Positions 1,759 through 25,254 of a stretch of 64,000 bases of DNA are shown here, piece after piece; position 1 is the stretch's first letter, and each line of letters begins with the position of its first letter. This DNA is from Eledone cirrhosa (taxonomy: Eukaryota). Location: NCBI GenBank assembly GCA_964016885.1, contig OZ024743.1, forward strand, positions 311,116,001-311,180,000, in the 5' to 3' direction. The position numbers and the translations under genes were made by a program. Below the pieces are notes generated by a model. That model had not been told where the DNA came from. It did not search any database and was given only the letters and a program-made list of their open reading frames with translations.

Positions 1759-4010
1759 TCAGGTTATAAATTGGGTGCTGAGTTGTAGTCTATTATTGAT
1801 TGGTGGTTGTGTTTTATCTATAATTAGTGATTCCTTAATTCTAAGATTGCCGAGGTTTCTTTCCTTAGTTTCTATCCTAACTGTTATCGTTTTGTCGGTG
1901 TTTTTGCATTTAACTAGGTGTTTCTTAAATGAGGAAGCGTTAGTATTGAGGTGTTCTTTTATTCTTATGTGGAGTGGTCTGGTGGTGCTACCTACGTAGA
2001 AGTTGTTGCATTTTTCACACTCTAGTCTGTATACGACGTAAGCCTGGTGGCATAGGTCTGTGTCGTTGATGGGGCAGTTGGCTAGTCTGCAGCAGTTGTC
2101 ATGTCTGGTGGAGTGTCTTTTGGTTAGCTGTCCGCGTAGAGAAGGACCTGAGTGGGCCAGTTGGATATCTAGTCCCTCTCGTCTGATGGCTCTGCGGATG
2201 GCTGTTGTTGTTTCTTCACTGAAGTGTGGGAGCTTCAGGAAGCAAGTGTTAGTGCCTCGGGTGTGGTGTCCTCTGTTCTTTCTGGCACGGTTTGTGGTGG
2301 ATGTCGTGTATCCGTTCAGTTTGAGTACTTCCAGGAAATGTGTGGTGTGTGTGTCTCGGTCTCTAGCGTCGGTGCATTTGTTCCGGATACGTGCCAGTTC
2401 GTTCTTTATGTATCCGAACTTGGCACCGAGTGGGAGGGCCGATCTGAAATGTACGAACAGGTCGCTGCTGGCGGCTTTTTTATAGAAGCAGGTGTGGATG
2501 CTGCCTTCCTCTGTTACCCTGAGTTGGAAGTTCAGTAGGGATAGGGATCCCCGGTCATCGGGGTGTTCCATGCTGAACTTTATACTGGCGTCCATGCTGG
2601 AGAATGTTGTGTATATTTTATATGCCTCCTCACGGGATGATGTAAGGATGAGTATGTCATCTACATATCGGGTGAAGAAGTCATGGGAGTGGCAGGTGTT
2701 GAGGGCTCGGCATTCTAGCTGGTTCATGTAGGTGATGGCCAGCAGGCCCGATAGGCTGGATCCCATGGGTAATCCTGTTGTCTGTCTGTATATGTGGTGG
2801 TGGAAGGTGAAGTACGTGTTGTCTACTGTGAAGGACAAAAGCTGGTGTATGTCCGTCGGGTGGAGGCCGTACCAGTGGATGTCCTCTGCGACCACGCAGT
2901 CCGTCAATAAATCGACAGCTGGATAAGCGGGGACTGTAGTGTAGAGGGAGACAACGTCTAGGCTAAAAGCGTATTTATTTAGTTTAAGTTGTTCTGGCTG
3001 GAGTTGGTGTAGTCTACGTATAACTTCGTCGGAGCTACTGACATGCCCGGGAAAGGTGAAGAGTAGAGGCTTGAGGACCTGGAAGAAGAGCCAGGAAATT
3101 TTGTATAGGGGTCCTTCTATGCTAGAGACGATGGGTCTTATTTGCGTCTTAGTACTATTCTTGTGGGTCTTGATGAGGTGGTAGAAAGTGGGCAGTCTGC
3201 TATTTCTAGTGGTGTAGTTGAGCTTAACTTTATTTGGGAGTTGTCTTCTCCTACAGATATCGAACCAAATGGAGTTGGTCTGTTTTTCGATCTGGGCTGC
3301 AGTCATGTCCGGGATCTCTGTGTATAATTCATTGTCGCTTAGGTGTTCAAAGGCTAGGTTATTGTATGTGGCTTGAGAGATGATGCAAAACTCTTTACCT
3401 TTGTCGGATGGTAAGTATATAAGTTCCCTATTCCGTAGGTTGTTCAGGGCGAGTTGTTGTGTCCTGGAGAGGTTTGGGGCTATCGTCTTCTGTTTCCGTA
3501 AGATGTTAAATACGGAATGTTTTAGACTCGAGAGTTTTTCTTCAAGCTAGCGGTTGGCAGGCGACGGAGAGAGTGGGCGATCTATTTGGTATATCGGGAA
3601 TCTGGGTTTGATGGATTCCGTGGTGTTGTTGTCGAGAGTCGATATCCATTTTAGTTGGTAGGCAGCCCGACAGAAATTCGTTTCTATGTCGAGCCATAAT
3701 TTGTCGTCCAGTCTCTGTTTCAATATGAACTTGGGACCCAGGCTGAGGAGGTCTAATTCCTCTCGAGAGAGGTATCCTGTCAAGTCTGTGACGAGGTGTT
3801 TTGCGTCAGGTGTGTTGTTGGTCGGGGCGCCGCTAGGTTCGGTGTTGGTACCGTCTTGTTCACCTCTGTTGATGTTTAGAGTTGGGATGTTGTTAAGACA
3901 GTTGGTCGTCCTGAGTTTGAGGAATTGTTGCGTTAGTCGTATTTTCTCGTAGTCTCGGCGATGGTGGTATGACCTGTCTATAGTGGCGGAGATGACTCTG
4001 GACAGAGGTT
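1759..4010 (-). pseudogene. Penelope-like RT/GIY-YIG ORF with one in-frame TAG (3547-3549)
   Basis: LLSLGPKF, PSDKGKEF, RPIVS, SLDVVSLYT, GLPMGSSLS, RYVDDIL; GIY-YIG VVYRLECEKCNNFYVGSTTRPLHIRIKEH. ORFs 3547-3783 and 1759-3306 are in the same frame and the frame stays open upstream to ~4010. Confidence 0.9.
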
Positions 4011-7755: not shown

Positions 7756-8154
7756 CTGCAAAAATGAAAAGAAATAACTTACATTTCAAATATATATTGT
7801 GCTGACAAAGCCCTGAAGTTTTGGGGGCAGACACAATAGTCTGAACACTAAGCCACACACTTTCACTAGTGAATTCACTACAAATTGCAGCAGTACTACT
7901 ATGTCACTAAACATTCGTTGGACCTGCATAGAAAAATCATCAACAGATTGTATATTCATTTGTTGTATCTGCATGTTAGCATTAATAAATGTTTTAAGTG
8001 AGGTCATTTGATCTTCTACCATTGAATCTAGTATCACAGAACCCTGTCATTGATTCACTGATGGGTTTGATGTCATTGAGTTGTTACACTGATCTTGAAA
8101 GGTAGTTAGATTAGAAGGATTTGATGGATGTGAACTACTTGTAGGATTATTTGA

Positions 8155-11100
8155 GTAAAATATTTGAAAAACTTTCAGGATAAAATTTGAGGAAAATATT
8201 TTAACAATTTTAAGGAAACTTTTAAAGAATGTTTTTTTTTTTTTGAAAGCTTTTGCAAATTTTGTGAAAGCTTTTGAAATATTTGAGAGGAATTTCAAAG
8301 AAAATTTAGTTGAAGATGTTTGAACATTTTGAGAAACATTTCCAAGAAAAAATGTTTCATACAACTTCTTTTCGTGGAAATATTTAAGAAAGATTTTAGA
8401 GAAAAGAATTAAGAAATTTTCTCGAGAACATCTTGATAAAAATTGTGGAAAATATCTCAACAATGTTCAGGAAAATTTTAATGAAAGATTTTAGGAAAAC
8501 CTTTGCAATTTTGGGATACGTTTTGAGTAGAATTTTAAAGAAAATTTTAGAAATATTTTAAGGAAAATTTCGAAAGCATTGTGAGGAATATTTTGGAGAA
8601 ACGCTTTAAATTTTTTAAAAAACAAAATTATAATAATTATGAGAGGATATTTGTTGAAATGTTTTATAAAATTTGGCGAAATATATTTATTAAGGTTTGG
8701 GGAGAGTTTTGAGCAAAACATTTGAAAGATTTGTGGAAACTTTTGAAGGAAATTCGGTTGAAACTTTCTCAAAAATATTTTCATAAAATATTTTTTAAAA
8801 TTTAAGATAATATTTGAAAACATTTCAGAAAAACTTTCAAGAAATTTTCGGGAAAACTTTTGCAATTTTTGCGAAGGCCTTTAAAGAAAATTTCGTTGAA
8901 AATGTTAGAAAGATTTTGAGAATTATTTTAATGAAAATTTTGAAAACATTGTGAGGAATATTTTTGAAGAAACAATTTAAATTTAAATAAACAAAATTGA
9001 TAATAATTACGAGGGGATATTTCTTGAAACTTTTTAGAAAATTTTGGCAAAATATGTTTTAGTACATTTTAGGAAGATTTCGAGAGAAAAATGTTAAATT
9101 TTTATGGAAAATTTTGGAGAAAGATTTTGTTGAAATTTTCGGTAAGATATTTTGATAAATTTTAAGAAACGTTTAAGTAAAATATTTCAGAAATTTTTAC
9201 AAAAATGTTAATGTAACTTTTTAGGTAAACGTTTGCAATTTTTGTGAAAATGTTTCAAAATTTTGAGAATTTAATGAATATTTCATTGCAGATGTTAGAA
9301 TAATTTTGAGAAACATTTTAATGAAAGTTTTGTAAACGTTGTTTGGAATATTATTTGTAGAACGCTTTAAATTTTTGAAAAGATAACTTGATAGTAACTA
9401 TGAGAGGACATTTGCTGCAAGGTTTTATAACATATTAGCGAAATATTTCTAGTATATTTTAAGGGTATTTTGAGACAAAATTTGACAAAATAGTAGAACA
9501 TTTTGAGAGAATTTTTGTAAAACTTATCTAAATATTTTGTTAAAATACTTTGGTAAAATATCAAGAAACATTTCAGGAAAATATTTGATATATTTTCAGG
9601 AAGAATTTAAAGAAAGTTTTTATGAAAACTTTTGCAAAAGCTTTGAAAAAGTAGAGTTAAATTATAAAGGAAATTTCGTTGCTGATATTTGAATAAATTT
9701 GATAAAATCTTAGAACAGAATTCAAGAAATATTTTTGAAAAACATTTTCATATAATTTGAAGAAAATATCGGAACAATTTTCGAGAAAGTTTAGAGTGAA
9801 GTTTAAAGAAAAGTTTCACAATTTATGTGAAAATTTTGTAAGTTTTGAAAAGAATTCTAAAGACTATTTTGTTGAAGATGCTAGATTAATTTTGAGAAAT
9901 ATTTTAATGAAAATTTTGAAAACATTTTCAGGGATATTTTTGAAGAAACGTTTTAAATGATTGAAAGGAATCTTGATAATGATAATTGTTTCTACTTTTG
10001 GCACAAGGCCAGCAGGATTTGAACTCAGAATGGAAAGGGCAGTAACTCTATGCATCAAAGTATGGCGTCCGACCCTCTACCGATACTGCCAATCCACCGC
10101 CTTTGATAATAATAATTGTTTCTACTTTTGGCACAAGGCCAGCAATTACCCAGTGTATTACTGATACTTTATGTTATCGACCTTGTAAGAATGAAAGGCA
10201 AAGTTAACCTCGGCCCTTGATAATAATAATGAGAGGCTATTTGTTGAAACGTTTTATGAAGTTTTGGCGAAAAATGTTAGTACACTTTCAGGAAAATTTT
10301 GAGAAAAACCTTTGAAAGGTTTCTGAAAAGTTTTGGTGAGAAATTCTGTTGACATTTTTAACAAAGATATGAGGAAAATATAGAAATGTTTTAGGAAAGC
10401 TTTTGAAAATGTGTGACAATATATAAACAACCATCCGAGTTAAATCATAATGGAAAATTTTTGAAGAAAAGATTGGAGAATGTATGGAAAATTATTGAGA
10501 GAAATTCTGTTGAAAATTTCTTGAAAATATTTTGATAAGATTTTAAAAACAAATTGAGAAAATTATTTGAAAAATTTTCAAGAAAATTATGAAGAAAGTT
10601 TTTAGAACTTTAGTAATATTTCTGAAAACTTTTCAAAATTTTCAGAGGAATTTTAAAGAAAATTTCGTTGAAGATGTTTTTAAAATTTTCAGAAATATTT
10701 CAAAGAAAATTTTATCAAGCTTTTTTATTTTGAAAATTTTTTTTAAGTTTTAAAGAAACATTCTGGAAAACATTTTCATAAAATTTGAAGAATCAAGAAT
10801 ATTTTTTAATTTTTAGCAAATATATTGGAATATTTTAAAAAGTTTTGAGAAACATTTCCAGGAAAAATTTCGCAAATTTATTCAACCGCTTTTATTGTGT
10901 GAAATAATTCTATTTTGAAAGAAAATTTTAGAAATTTCTTTGAAGATATTTTTTAAAATTTGAGAAACATTTTAAAGAACATTTTGAAAATTTCTTCAAT
11001 CATCTTCCTTTTGTGAAAGTTTTTAAGTGAAATTTTGAGAAGAATTTTAAAGAAAATTTCGATGAATATGTTTGAATAATATTGATAAACATTTGAAAGA

Positions 11101-11965
11101 ATTTTGAATTTTAATTAATATTTTCACAAGAATTTTAAAAGAAATTTCCTTGAAGATGTTTGCAATTTTTTAGAAATATTTTGAAAAACTTTTCTGATTT
11201 TCTTTTTAAACCTCTTCATTTTGTGATAATGTTTAAGTAAAATTTTAGAAAAAGAAAATCAAAACTTTTCTCGAAAACATTTTGATAAAATTTGCGGTAT
11301 TTGAACAATTTCATGAAAATATTTGTGAAATTAAAAAAACAAATTTAAGAATTTTGAAAAAAATTTCGTTGAATATGTTTGAATAATTTTGATAAACATT
11401 TTAAAGAAAGTTTTGAAAGAATTTTTATGAATATTTTGGAAGAAACGCTTTAAATTTTCGAAATAACACTTCATAATAATTATGAGAGGATATTCATTGA
11501 AACTTTTATAAAACTTTGGGGAAATATTTTTATTAAATTTGAGGAAAAGTTTGAGAAAAACACCTGAAATTTTGCGGAATTTTATTAAGAGGAAATTTGT
11601 TGAAATTTTCTCTAACATATATTGGTAAATTTTCGTTAAAGGAGTTTGAAAATTTTGAGAAACATTTTAAAGAAAATTTTCTCAAATCTAAAGTAAATTT
11701 TAAGAAAATAAATCAAGAAATTTTCTCGAAAATATTTTCATAAAATTTGAAGAAAATATTTGAGAAAATTTCAGGAAAAGACATTTTTAAGGAAAATCTT
11801 TCTCAAAATTATTTTTACACCTTCAATGAAATTTTCTTTAAAATTCTTTTCAAAGTTTTCAAAACTTTTTACAAAAATTACAACAATTTTCCTAATTTTT
11901 TGTTGATATTTTCTCGAAAATATTTTGATAAACGTTTATAGAAAGTTTTGAGGAAAATATTTGAA
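8155..11965. repeat. ~3.8 kb degenerate AT-rich satellite-like array
   Basis: Recurrent motifs such as tttgagaaacattttaaagaaaatttcgttgaagatgttt and gagaggatatttgttgaaa; SINE pieces inserted at ~9985-10215. Confidence 0.8.
9985..10215 (-). mobile_element. Octopus-type SINE, rearranged
   Basis: Head ggcggtggattggcagtatcggtagagggtcggacgcc and tail ctggccttgtgccaaaagtagaaacaat, both reverse-complemented; tail duplicated. Confidence 0.75.
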
Positions 11966-12447
11966 CGAGTTGGAACGAGTTGGAACGTGCTGTGTATATA
12001 TTGAGTCAGTATCATTTACTTTGAATCAGCTCAACCTTGTTTGTGTAATTGGTTAGACGCAAACTGAATGTCCATTTGATAGACTGTACCCGAAATAAGC
12101 ACAAGCCTTGTCACATGCATTGCCACGCTGAATTTCCTTACAAATTACGCTGTGGATCACGTGTCTGTAGAATACTTAACTACTTGCAAAACAGACAGTT
12201 CCGTTGATAAAATAAATTGGAATATGCATCGTCGTATTAGTGTATAGCAAGGCTGGATCGTCGTTTCAATTACATTTTTTCTAAGGTGAGTTGGCTGTAG
12301 CAACATAAAATTAAGTGCTTTACCGAAGGACAATACGTACCACTGGAAATTGAACTCATAATAATAGGCGAAACATCTTAACTACTAAACCACGTGCCTT
12401 CACGCTTTAAGAGTATACAATAATATATTTGAAGTTACTAGCTTGGA

Positions 12448-18595: not shown

Positions 18596-18772
18596 AATAT
18601 ACTCCAAATATTTGTTGAGTGCTTTTATATCAGTTATAAATATTTACTCGTTGTTAACCCAACAATTTAAAAATAACTTTCCATATATATATACAATCGA
18701 ATCGAACATTATTATTCATGTTCGATATAATCCATACGTACATATGTATATGTATATATATATATATGTATA

Positions 18773-23955: not shown

Positions 23956-24241
23956 TTAGGTGTTGTAGAAACCCAATTTCGGAGTATTCCATCTTCCCCG
24001 AAGGGTCCGGGTAAATATTTCAATCATATCTCATTTTGTTTGACCCGTTTAGCCTGTTTGCTTTTTTGGCTATGGTGGTTAATGGCTTCTTAACCATCGT
24101 CTCAGCGTATATGACCATTTTAACTTATGTTTATAGCTCTTGTATCTTCTTCAGACCCATGGAGCGCTTGTCTGCACAATATGGAAGTTGCGTTTCGCTA
24201 ATTTCTACCCGCCGAAATGCGATTCTCGCTAAATTTATATT

Positions 24242-24277
<36 letters not shown>

Positions 24278-24319
24278 CATACATACTTATATACATACAC
24301 ACACATATATACATATGCA

Positions 24320-24635
24320 TATATACGTATGGGTTATATCGAACATTAATAATAATGTTCGATTCGTTTGTAAACGAACGGCCCGATTTGAAGCTGTTCC
24401 GTGCTGGTGATCGACGTGACCTGTTTCTTCAATACTGGCTTTGAGGAACAATCACCATGTTTCTGGGTCATTACCCCTCATCAGGACTGTATACCTCTAC
24501 GAGTCTGTTGAACGGTTGAAAATATATAGTATTTTCTTAAGTACACATCAGCTGAGTAGCCTCATTTGTATACCGAGCAAGGCGAGTTACGGCTAGCCTT
24601 GCCGAATATTAAAAATAAAATTACAATTTTATTTA
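24320..24635 (-). mobile_element. Diverged subfamily of the retrozyme-like repeat, hammerhead at 24448-24490
   Basis: Collinear with the minus-strand monomers (cgaacatt..aatgttcg hairpin, gtttgtaaac, ggaac..gtttc..tcag..gtatacc, ctgagtagcc..atttg); partial copy at 46890-47035. Confidence 0.7.
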
Positions 24636-24641
24636 CAAACA

Positions 24642-24849
<208 letters not shown>

Positions 24850-25254
24850 CATATATAGAAAGAGTGAAGAATAACATGGTCAACAGTACAAAAAAGGGTT
24901 TTATTTATAGTCTAACAATTTTATCACTGATTAAGTTGTCTAAATATGCTGAACACTTGGAGCTGTGCCACTCAATTTTAAATAGGTTGTTAGCTTAACC
25001 AGATCATCAGAGAAACTGTTATATGTTCAGTATTTACGAATTCAAATTACAGCATCATTGGTAGTATTAATAAAGATAGAGAGAGAAAAAAAGGAAGGGA
25101 GATAGAGAGAAAAACGAAAGAAAAAGGAGAAAGGAAAAAGAAAGAGAAAGATATAGAGGTAAAAGACATAGAGAAAAGAGGATAGAAAGAGAACAGAAAA
25201 GGATAAAGAAAAAATAATAAAAGTTAAAGAAAAAGAAGAATAAAGGGAAAGATA

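What the first reader, a model, noticed from the sequence alone, without database searches (positions are those of the whole stretch)
24320..24635. Diverged sister subfamily of the retrozyme with all three hammerhead stems re-written
Seen: this segment is collinear with the main monomer, yet its hammerhead reads acagtc-CTGATGA-g-gggt/aat/gaccc-a-GAAA-catg-GT-gattgt. Stem I (acagtc/gattgt), stem II and the stem III palindrome (CATG vs CTAG) differ in sequence but keep pairing. This copy has G at U16.1, so it is probably dead. Partial relatives lie at 46890-47035 and 18695-18745. Inference: multi-site covariation means long-term selection on the RNA fold and an old, diversified family.
Basis: partly seen in the sequence, partly recalled or inferred. 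Interest (0 to 1): 0.72.

Follow-up and report, generated by a model that had tools for sequence, protein, structure and literature searches.

The report
Fossil sister subfamily of hammerhead retrozyme
This is one damaged copy of an older, scattered branch of a very common non-coding repeat that likely jumps through a self-cutting RNA; comparing it with the younger branches shows the RNA fold, a promoter-like block and the insertion ends were kept while about 30% of the letters changed, which is a clear but largely expected example of a known kind of element.

Summary
Confirmed. Window 24320-24634 (minus strand) is a decayed copy of a distinct subfamily ('B', roughly 1,000-2,000 dispersed copies, estimated) of an abundant type I hammerhead non-LTR retrozyme lineage in this 3.0-Gb animal genome. 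B is 70% identical to the young tandem family A1 over the whole unit. The G at U16.1 is private: 27 of 29 other copies read GUU and 82 copies carry an exact intact hammerhead. Between family majorities, stems I and II and distal helices change in compensating pairs, and helix III stays palindromic. Within B, copies decay neutrally (core 2.3% vs background 3.7%, P=0.19), so selection acted on source elements, not on these copies. B also keeps a block like the host U6 upstream region and the same two Penelope-type insertion ends as A. One oddity: the base of stem II is A.A in B, not a pair. No cleavage or expression was shown. The scan had already reported the younger families, the promoter and the ends on other DNA; I tested them for B. 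Covarying animal hammerhead repeats are in print. New member of a known kind.

The parts
24320..24634 (-). Decayed, end-truncated single unit of retrozyme subfamily B
   Evidence: 93% to B majority over 316 columns; 16 of 310 substitutions
24613..24634 (-). AU-rich hairpin plus T run; the place where many B insertions end (site 2)
24564..24571 (-). Octamer-like promoter motif, damaged in this copy (one G to A change)
   Evidence: invariant in 7 of 7 family majorities; similar motif at about -77 of host U6 genes
24523..24528 (-). TATA-like box 35 nt after the octamer, inside a hairpin
   Evidence: spacing 34-37 nt in 9 of 9 family blocks listed, one of them with a decayed box
24443..24497 (-). 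Type I hammerhead: extended stem I, core CUGAUGA 24484-24478, stem II 24477-24464, GAAA 24463-24460, palindromic helix III 24460-24455
24455..24455 (-). Private G at conserved U16.1; predicted to inactivate this copy
   Evidence: 0 of 29 other aligned B copies carry G here; A15.1-U16.1 mutants at least 10-fold slower (PMC3088659 passages)
24338..24363 (-). 3' hairpin, conserved with a compensatory change in family A
24645..24857 (.). (TA)n microsatellite flank (second flank 24236-24325)
46887..47038 (-). 5' half of another B copy, stops just before the catalytic core
   Evidence: 94% to B majority
18692..18744 (+). 3' hairpin fragment of a B copy
   Evidence: 94% to B majority
57439..59307 (-). 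Young family A array (one A2a and three A1 units) with an inverted partial arm at 59198-59307
45634..46425 (+). Family A3 partial tandem, the A branch closest to B (74%)

Best explanation
The segment is a damaged, likely inactive copy of subfamily B, an older and likely extinct branch of a family of non-coding repeats whose source copies are predicted to have cut themselves with a type I hammerhead and were likely pasted into (TA)n tracts by Penelope-like retrotransposon enzymes. Shown: homology, copy number order, intact majority hammerhead, compensatory changes between families, neutral decay within B, two fixed 3' ends, inverted partner arms. Inferred: a U6-like block inside each unit drove transcription starting just before the ribozyme; read-through of tandem units gave multimers in which two hammerheads paired through the palindromic helix III and released unit-length RNA, possibly circular; a Penelope reverse transcriptase copied it. 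Only source elements that kept fold, promoter and ends left descendants, which is why families covary while individual copies decay.
For: Family: 2,126 first-look candidates, 40 scored, best others 88-91%; 196 matches to 28 fixed hammerhead letters vs 0 control; 726 CATG-type cores vs 13 control, about 68 of the first 100 listed B-type by eye. B is a star-like clade apart from A, D and G. Covariation: 10 family-pair tests, fewer broken pairs than null at P<0.05 in 7, more compensatory pairs in 9 (B structure on A1: 8 compensatory vs 3.2 expected, P=0.006); 92% of 176 cells paired vs 73+-2% shuffled, 11 of 16 pairs changed on both sides, slid controls 31-46%. Palindrome: of 60,958 cores of this geometry (39 control) the four purine-purine loops total 299, listed ones nearly all point mutants, against 18,862 for the S-S class, first 100 all CGCG. 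Two clean B hammerheads co-fold as the double hammerhead, -37.4 vs 2 x -16.3 kcal/mol. Age and decay: 34 pattern-picked B pieces median 7.9% from majority vs 1.9% for 77 A1 pieces; CpG 13.5% vs 3.7%; core and stems not better kept than background (P=0.19, 0.46). Ends: 38 of 41 scored 3' ends in two bins about 50 nt apart, and in 5 of 5 loci with two opposed B arms one arm ends at each site. A Penelope-type ORF (RT plus GIY-YIG) lies in the window.
Against: No cleavage, RNA or circle was shown. Stem II opens with A.A in 94 of the first 100 listed intact B cores, a mismatch at a normally conserved pair; only U.U is described as tolerated in the passages read. Full same-strand dimers are rare in B (1 locus, L166, among 64 pieces) although retrozymes are defined as tandem repeats. 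3 of 10 broken-pair tests were not significant and the tests share sequences; the structure was drawn from the same sequences. 28 of 61 loci gave no scorable end, site-1 calls rest on short AT-rich matches, and one site-2 call (L163) is probably internal. The window's Penelope element shares no sequence with the families, so the partner is not identified. The T run that would stop polymerase III lies before the promoter, so the model needs read-through.
Confidence: 0.85

Rival explanations
1. B is the solo pseudo-LTR of an extinct autonomous Penelope-like element rather than a free non-autonomous retrozyme.
For: Mostly single units with a partial repeat and inverted arms match Penelope insertion structure (PMC8557442 passages); Xenopus retrozymes resemble PLE pLTRs (preprint).
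Against: In the part that was shown, Penelope-like ORF pieces near B or A copies had no fixed position or strand; the window's intact PLE has a different, minimal hammerhead and no similarity; B has a full canonical hammerhead and its own promoter-like block. No genome-wide search for B joined to an ORF was run.
Confidence: 0.08
2. B's source had a weak or dead ribozyme (A.A at the base of stem II) and spread passively as a promoter-bearing SINE-like passenger of Penelope enzymes; the fold is a relic.
For: A.A in 94 of 100; few tandem dimers; 8 of 9 Xenopus dimers did not cleave in vitro (preprint).
Against: B's lineage kept all core letters, the loop II motif and paired stems through 30% divergence; family G, 59% identical, also mostly has A.A; young abundant A1 has U.U there.
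Confidence: 0.05
3. B copies were domesticated and their hammerheads are under host selection.
For: Core substitutions are slightly fewer than background (8 of 351 vs 225 of 6064).
Against: Not significant (P=0.19; stems P=0.46); strong CpG decay; this copy is broken in core and promoter.
Confidence: 0.02

Closest known systems
Metazoan non-LTR retrozymes (Cervera and de la Pena 2020, PMC7229834; passages and Discussion read)
   Same: 150-450 bp non-coding unit, low GC, canonical type I hammerhead, several ribozyme families per genome, co-occurring PLEs; axolotl Amex1 has a palindromic weak helix III and Amex2 a U.U mismatch at the base of helix II.
   Different: B is dispersed and decayed, seldom tandem; has A.A at 10.1-11.1; no expression or circles shown; cephalopods are not named in the main text searched (supplements not seen).
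Vertebrate non-LTR retrozymes as PLE derivatives (Li, Clavereau, Pollet 2026, 10.64898/2026.07.22.740005; parts 1-3 of 5 read)
   Same: Many families per genome, variable monomer proportion, proposed mobilisation by PLEs.
   Different: There pLTR homology is shown; here no homologous autonomous partner was found (only the window's PLE was compared).
Dolichopoda pDo500 hammerhead satellite (PMC2837043; abstract read)
   Same: Compensatory changes in hammerhead stems and a conserved core in an animal repeat, read as selection.
   Different: There across populations and species; here between co-resident subfamilies, with neutral decay inside B.
Newt satellite 2 (Coats 1994, not held; seen only as cited in PMC2220036; dimer mechanism from PMC6155905 passages)
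   Same: Internal snRNA-type promoter and dimer-dependent hammerhead.
   Different: Reported as polymerase II; the block here resembles the TATA-containing host U6 upstream region; transcription untested.

Membership tests
Type I hammerhead ribozyme | Core C3 U4 G5 A6 N7 G8 A9, G12 A13 A14, A15.1-U16.1, H17 | tested here: met
   Met by the B majority; not met by the window copy (G16.1)
Type I hammerhead ribozyme | Stem I (6 bp plus looped extension) and stem II (4 bp) paired, with covariation | tested here: met
Type I hammerhead ribozyme | Pair at 10.1-11.1 | tested here: not met
   A.A in 94 of first 100 listed; U.U exceptions are in print
Type I hammerhead ribozyme | Short palindromic helix III allowing a dimer | tested here: met
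   described as usual for metazoan hammerheads in PMC4209133 passages
Type I hammerhead ribozyme | Self-cleavage | not testable with these tools
   needs in vitro assay
Metazoan non-LTR retrozyme | Non-coding 150-450 bp unit in many copies, no LTR | tested here: met
   about 400-bp unit
Metazoan non-LTR retrozyme | Tandem units each with a hammerhead | tested here: inconclusive
   Met by sister families A, D, E; in B 1 full dimer among 64 pieces, otherwise a unit plus partial repeat
Metazoan non-LTR retrozyme | Linear and circular RNA expressed | not testable with these tools
   no RNA holder listed
Penelope-mobilised element | Microsatellite targets, partial tandems, inverted 5'-truncated arm, terminal extension at one end | tested here: met
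   against PMC8557442 passages
Penelope-mobilised element | Homology to the pLTR of an autonomous PLE | tested here: inconclusive
   none with the one PLE compared; genome-wide not tested
U6-type (snRNA) promoter | Host upstream element and TATA at matching spacing | tested here: inconclusive
   2 of 12 fetched U6 loci have the exact octamer at -76/-77, 5 a one-letter variant, 5 have other upstream DNA; TATA at -28 to -30 in 12 of 12; spacing 38-39 in the two exact ones vs 34-37 in the repeats; function untested

The most novel reading that the evidence does not exclude
B and its sisters form a natural mutagenesis series of a self-promoted retrozyme: each unit carries a copy of the host U6-type promoter, cuts only as a palindrome-paired dimer, tolerates A.A, C.A or U.U in place of the conserved 10.1-11.1 pair, and is read by Penelope enzymes from two structure-defined ends. 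If B cleaves, A.A is a new natural hammerhead variant, and the loss of tandem arrays would explain why a subfamily dies.
Probability: 0.35. Interest if true: 0.65.

Novelty: new member of a known kind. Interest (0 to 1): 0.4.

Why it matters
It turns a single broken copy into comparative evidence that the hammerheads of this very large family (at least 60,958 cores of one geometry) were functional in the source elements, and shows which parts a retrozyme lineage must keep: ribozyme, palindrome, promoter-like block and two ends. That gives direct bench targets for open questions on how animal retrozymes are transcribed and mobilised. It also warns that strict hammerhead descriptors that demand a 10.1-11.1 pair, and Rfam here (0 hits), miss these families. 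The class, the palindrome and stem covariation are already in print, so surprise is moderate.

Tried and rejected
Rfam: no hammerhead match at gathering score; the 150 of 278 E-value matches shown were microsatellite or palindrome artefacts. Expression: no RNA holder listed; only DNA-like contigs of one sample were laid. RNA-editing scars: A>G exceeds T>C on the ribozyme strand of B (123/5627 vs 69/4696, P=0.008) but A>T exceeds T>A as much (P=0.003), so not taken as editing. Promoter-less copies starting at the predicted start: 5 of 37 5' ends lie at 124-146, no clear peak. Absence of T4 runs in the predicted transcript of A and B: seen in 6 of 6 A and B units printed, not in D or E, too short to be significant. 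Random 590-kb sample: A-clade and G hits but no true B copy, consistent with a rarer family. Pfam on 6 ORFs: 1 gave RT plus GIY-YIG, 5 nothing. Alternative register placing G-U at 16.2-16.1 in the window copy was rejected: it gives a non-cleavable NUG and the family alignment fixes the register. Coats 1994 and Luzi 1997 not held. Literature searches for octopus or cephalopod retrozymes, for A10.1/A11.1 (0 papers) and for retrozyme plus U6 or polymerase III (none of 12 listed on retrozymes) found no description; Repbase, Dfam and paper supplements were not seen and may hold the element.

Full report
Setting. The window lies at G000:C4:311116001-311180000 in a 3.0-Gb animal assembly rich in (TA)n tracts. 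That it is a cephalopod is my recall-based guess and other agents' wording, not a result of any call.

Observation. On the minus strand 24497-24443 reads as a type I hammerhead exactly as described, with G in place of U16.1 at 24455. The segment aligns over its full length to the 420-bp tandem family at 57364-59115 and its relatives. The two partial relatives are B fragments, 94% identical to the B majority. Rfam does not detect any of these hammerheads at gathering score.

The subfamily. A genome search gave 2,126 first-look candidates; of 40 scored the best other copies were 88-91% identical. In 29 other aligned copies (three are one segmental triplicate) U16.1 is T in 27, C in 2, G in none, and H17 is T. 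The intact 43-nt hammerhead occurs 82 times and its 28 inner fixed letters 196 times, with 0 control matches. From about 490 B-type cores with 16 fixed letters intact (726 x about 0.68) and 5-8% decay I estimate 1,000-2,000 copies. A tree of 157 pieces separates B (star-like) from A1, A2, A3, D and G; majority identities of B are 69-74% to A branches, 55% to D, 59% to G. B is older: median 7.9% from majority for 34 pattern-picked pieces, 1.9% for 77 A1 pieces (most picked by likeness to a young copy), with CpG decay 13.5% vs 3.7%. One full same-strand dimer was seen among 64 pieces.

Covariation. Against A1, stem I changes at 3 of 6 pairs (G-C to A-U, U-G to G-U, G-C to C-G), stem II at 2 of 4 (A-U to G-C, C-G to G-C), and helix III only in its two loop letters. 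With the structure taken from one family alone and tested on another, 7 of 10 tests had fewer broken pairs and 9 of 10 more compensatory pairs than a substitution null at P<0.05; the tests are not independent and not tree-aware. On 11 real copies from A, B, D and E, 92% of cells paired vs 73% shuffled and 31-46% slid; the structure was drawn from these sequences. All 7 majorities fold better than shuffles (z -2.6 to -7.6, 40 shuffles each). A clean B copy folds with stems I and II formed (z=-3.9); the window copy does not (z=-0.9). Inside B (27 copies) core and stems decay like the rest. So selection worked on the source elements between families, and the genomic copies are fossils.

Helix III. 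The geometry CUGANGA-N14-GAAAC-NN-GU occurs 60,958 times (39 control). The first 100 listed had only palindromic loops (TA, GC, one AT). AT totals 726, the S-S class 18,862 with the first 100 all GC, the four purine-purine loops 299. TA and the other classes were not counted separately. Two clean B hammerheads co-fold into the double hammerhead. This is the known dimer mechanism (PMC4209133, PMC6155905, PMC3088659 passages).

An oddity. Position 10.1-11.1 is A.A in 94 of the first 100 listed intact B cores, U.U in A1 and A2, C.A in A3, G-C in D. U.U is reported as tolerated; one search found no paper with A10.1 and A11.1.

Promoter-like block. An octamer-like motif (name recalled) is invariant in 7 of 7 majorities and is followed by a TATA-like box 34-37 nt later. 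Host U6 genes carry the same motif at -76/-77 in 2 of 12 loci fetched (of 48 found), a one-letter variant in 5 and unrelated DNA in 5, with TATA at -28 to -30; 13 letters of B match locus L210 exactly. By that spacing a start would fall at the GGCAG just before extended stem I (inference). I noticed the motif and spacing before calling the scan's notes; the U6 comparison was prompted by them. A newt precedent is cited in PMC2220036. The first T run lies after the AU-rich hairpin and before the next promoter, so unit-length RNA needs read-through.

Insertion ends. In 61 B loci, 33 gave 41 scorable 3' ends; 38 fall in two bins about 50 nt apart, and in the 5 loci with two opposed B arms one arm ends at each site (a sixth locus has an A-type opposite piece). 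Family A ends at the homologous two places, 56 nt apart in the reference used, its hairpin region being 9-12 nt longer. Microsatellite targets, partial tandems, inverted arms and a one-sided tail are Penelope hallmarks (PMC8557442 passages). An RT plus GIY-YIG ORF lies at 1762-3546 but shares no sequence with the repeats. This test followed a lead from the scan.

What is known. Non-LTR retrozymes, multiple hammerhead families per genome, palindromic helix III and compensatory stem changes are published (PMC7229834, PMC4209133, PMC2837043, preprint 10.64898/2026.07.22.740005). No cephalopod retrozyme turned up; supplements, Repbase and Dfam were not seen. The scan has reported the younger families many times; a sequence look-up with this copy returned nothing.

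Verdict. Observation confirmed, interpretation supported with the limits above. New member of a known kind; interest 0.4.

Noticed in passing
window 1762-3546 (-), hammerhead-like core at 1361 (-): 595-aa open frame with RT and GIY-YIG domains (Penelope-like element) and a minimal hammerhead-like core about 400 nt downstream.
   Followed up: partly
L036, L070, L074, L085 (family G): A relative 59% identical to B keeps the promoter block and mostly the A.A mismatch but, read by eye, has a 3-bp helix III with a tetraloop and GUC site: a possible switch between dimer-type and monomer-type hammerheads in one lineage.
   Followed up: partly
G000:C1:319893995-319896432: Four A-type stem II cores in one two-armed insertion carry the AT loop of B instead of TA: an apparently independent palindrome-preserving change.
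   Followed up: no
L190-L209 (e.g. L193, L195, L204, L208, L209): Lone canonical hammerhead cores with AT loop and paired stem II whose flanks look unrelated to each other by eye: very old relics or conserved single-copy ribozymes.
   Followed up: no
L082 9200-10000: Another two-armed hammerhead family (H) with the same octamer-TATA spacing but a different helix III.
   Followed up: partly
L128 (G000:C28:110000001-110010000): A random 10-kb stretch is wholly an A1 array of 24 units.
   Followed up: no
window 52600-53460 and 53600-53960: Long near-perfect inverted duplications of microsatellite-flanked repeats, in keeping with two-armed Penelope-type insertions.
   Followed up: no
G000:C19:31780605-31840331: Tandem cluster of variant U6 genes at about 1.8-kb spacing; 5 of 10 fetched have the upstream element replaced by another repeat.
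   Followed up: no
window 8144-11987: About 4 kb of degenerate AT-rich 11-12-nt repeats, then a short 10-nt tandem.
   Followed up: no
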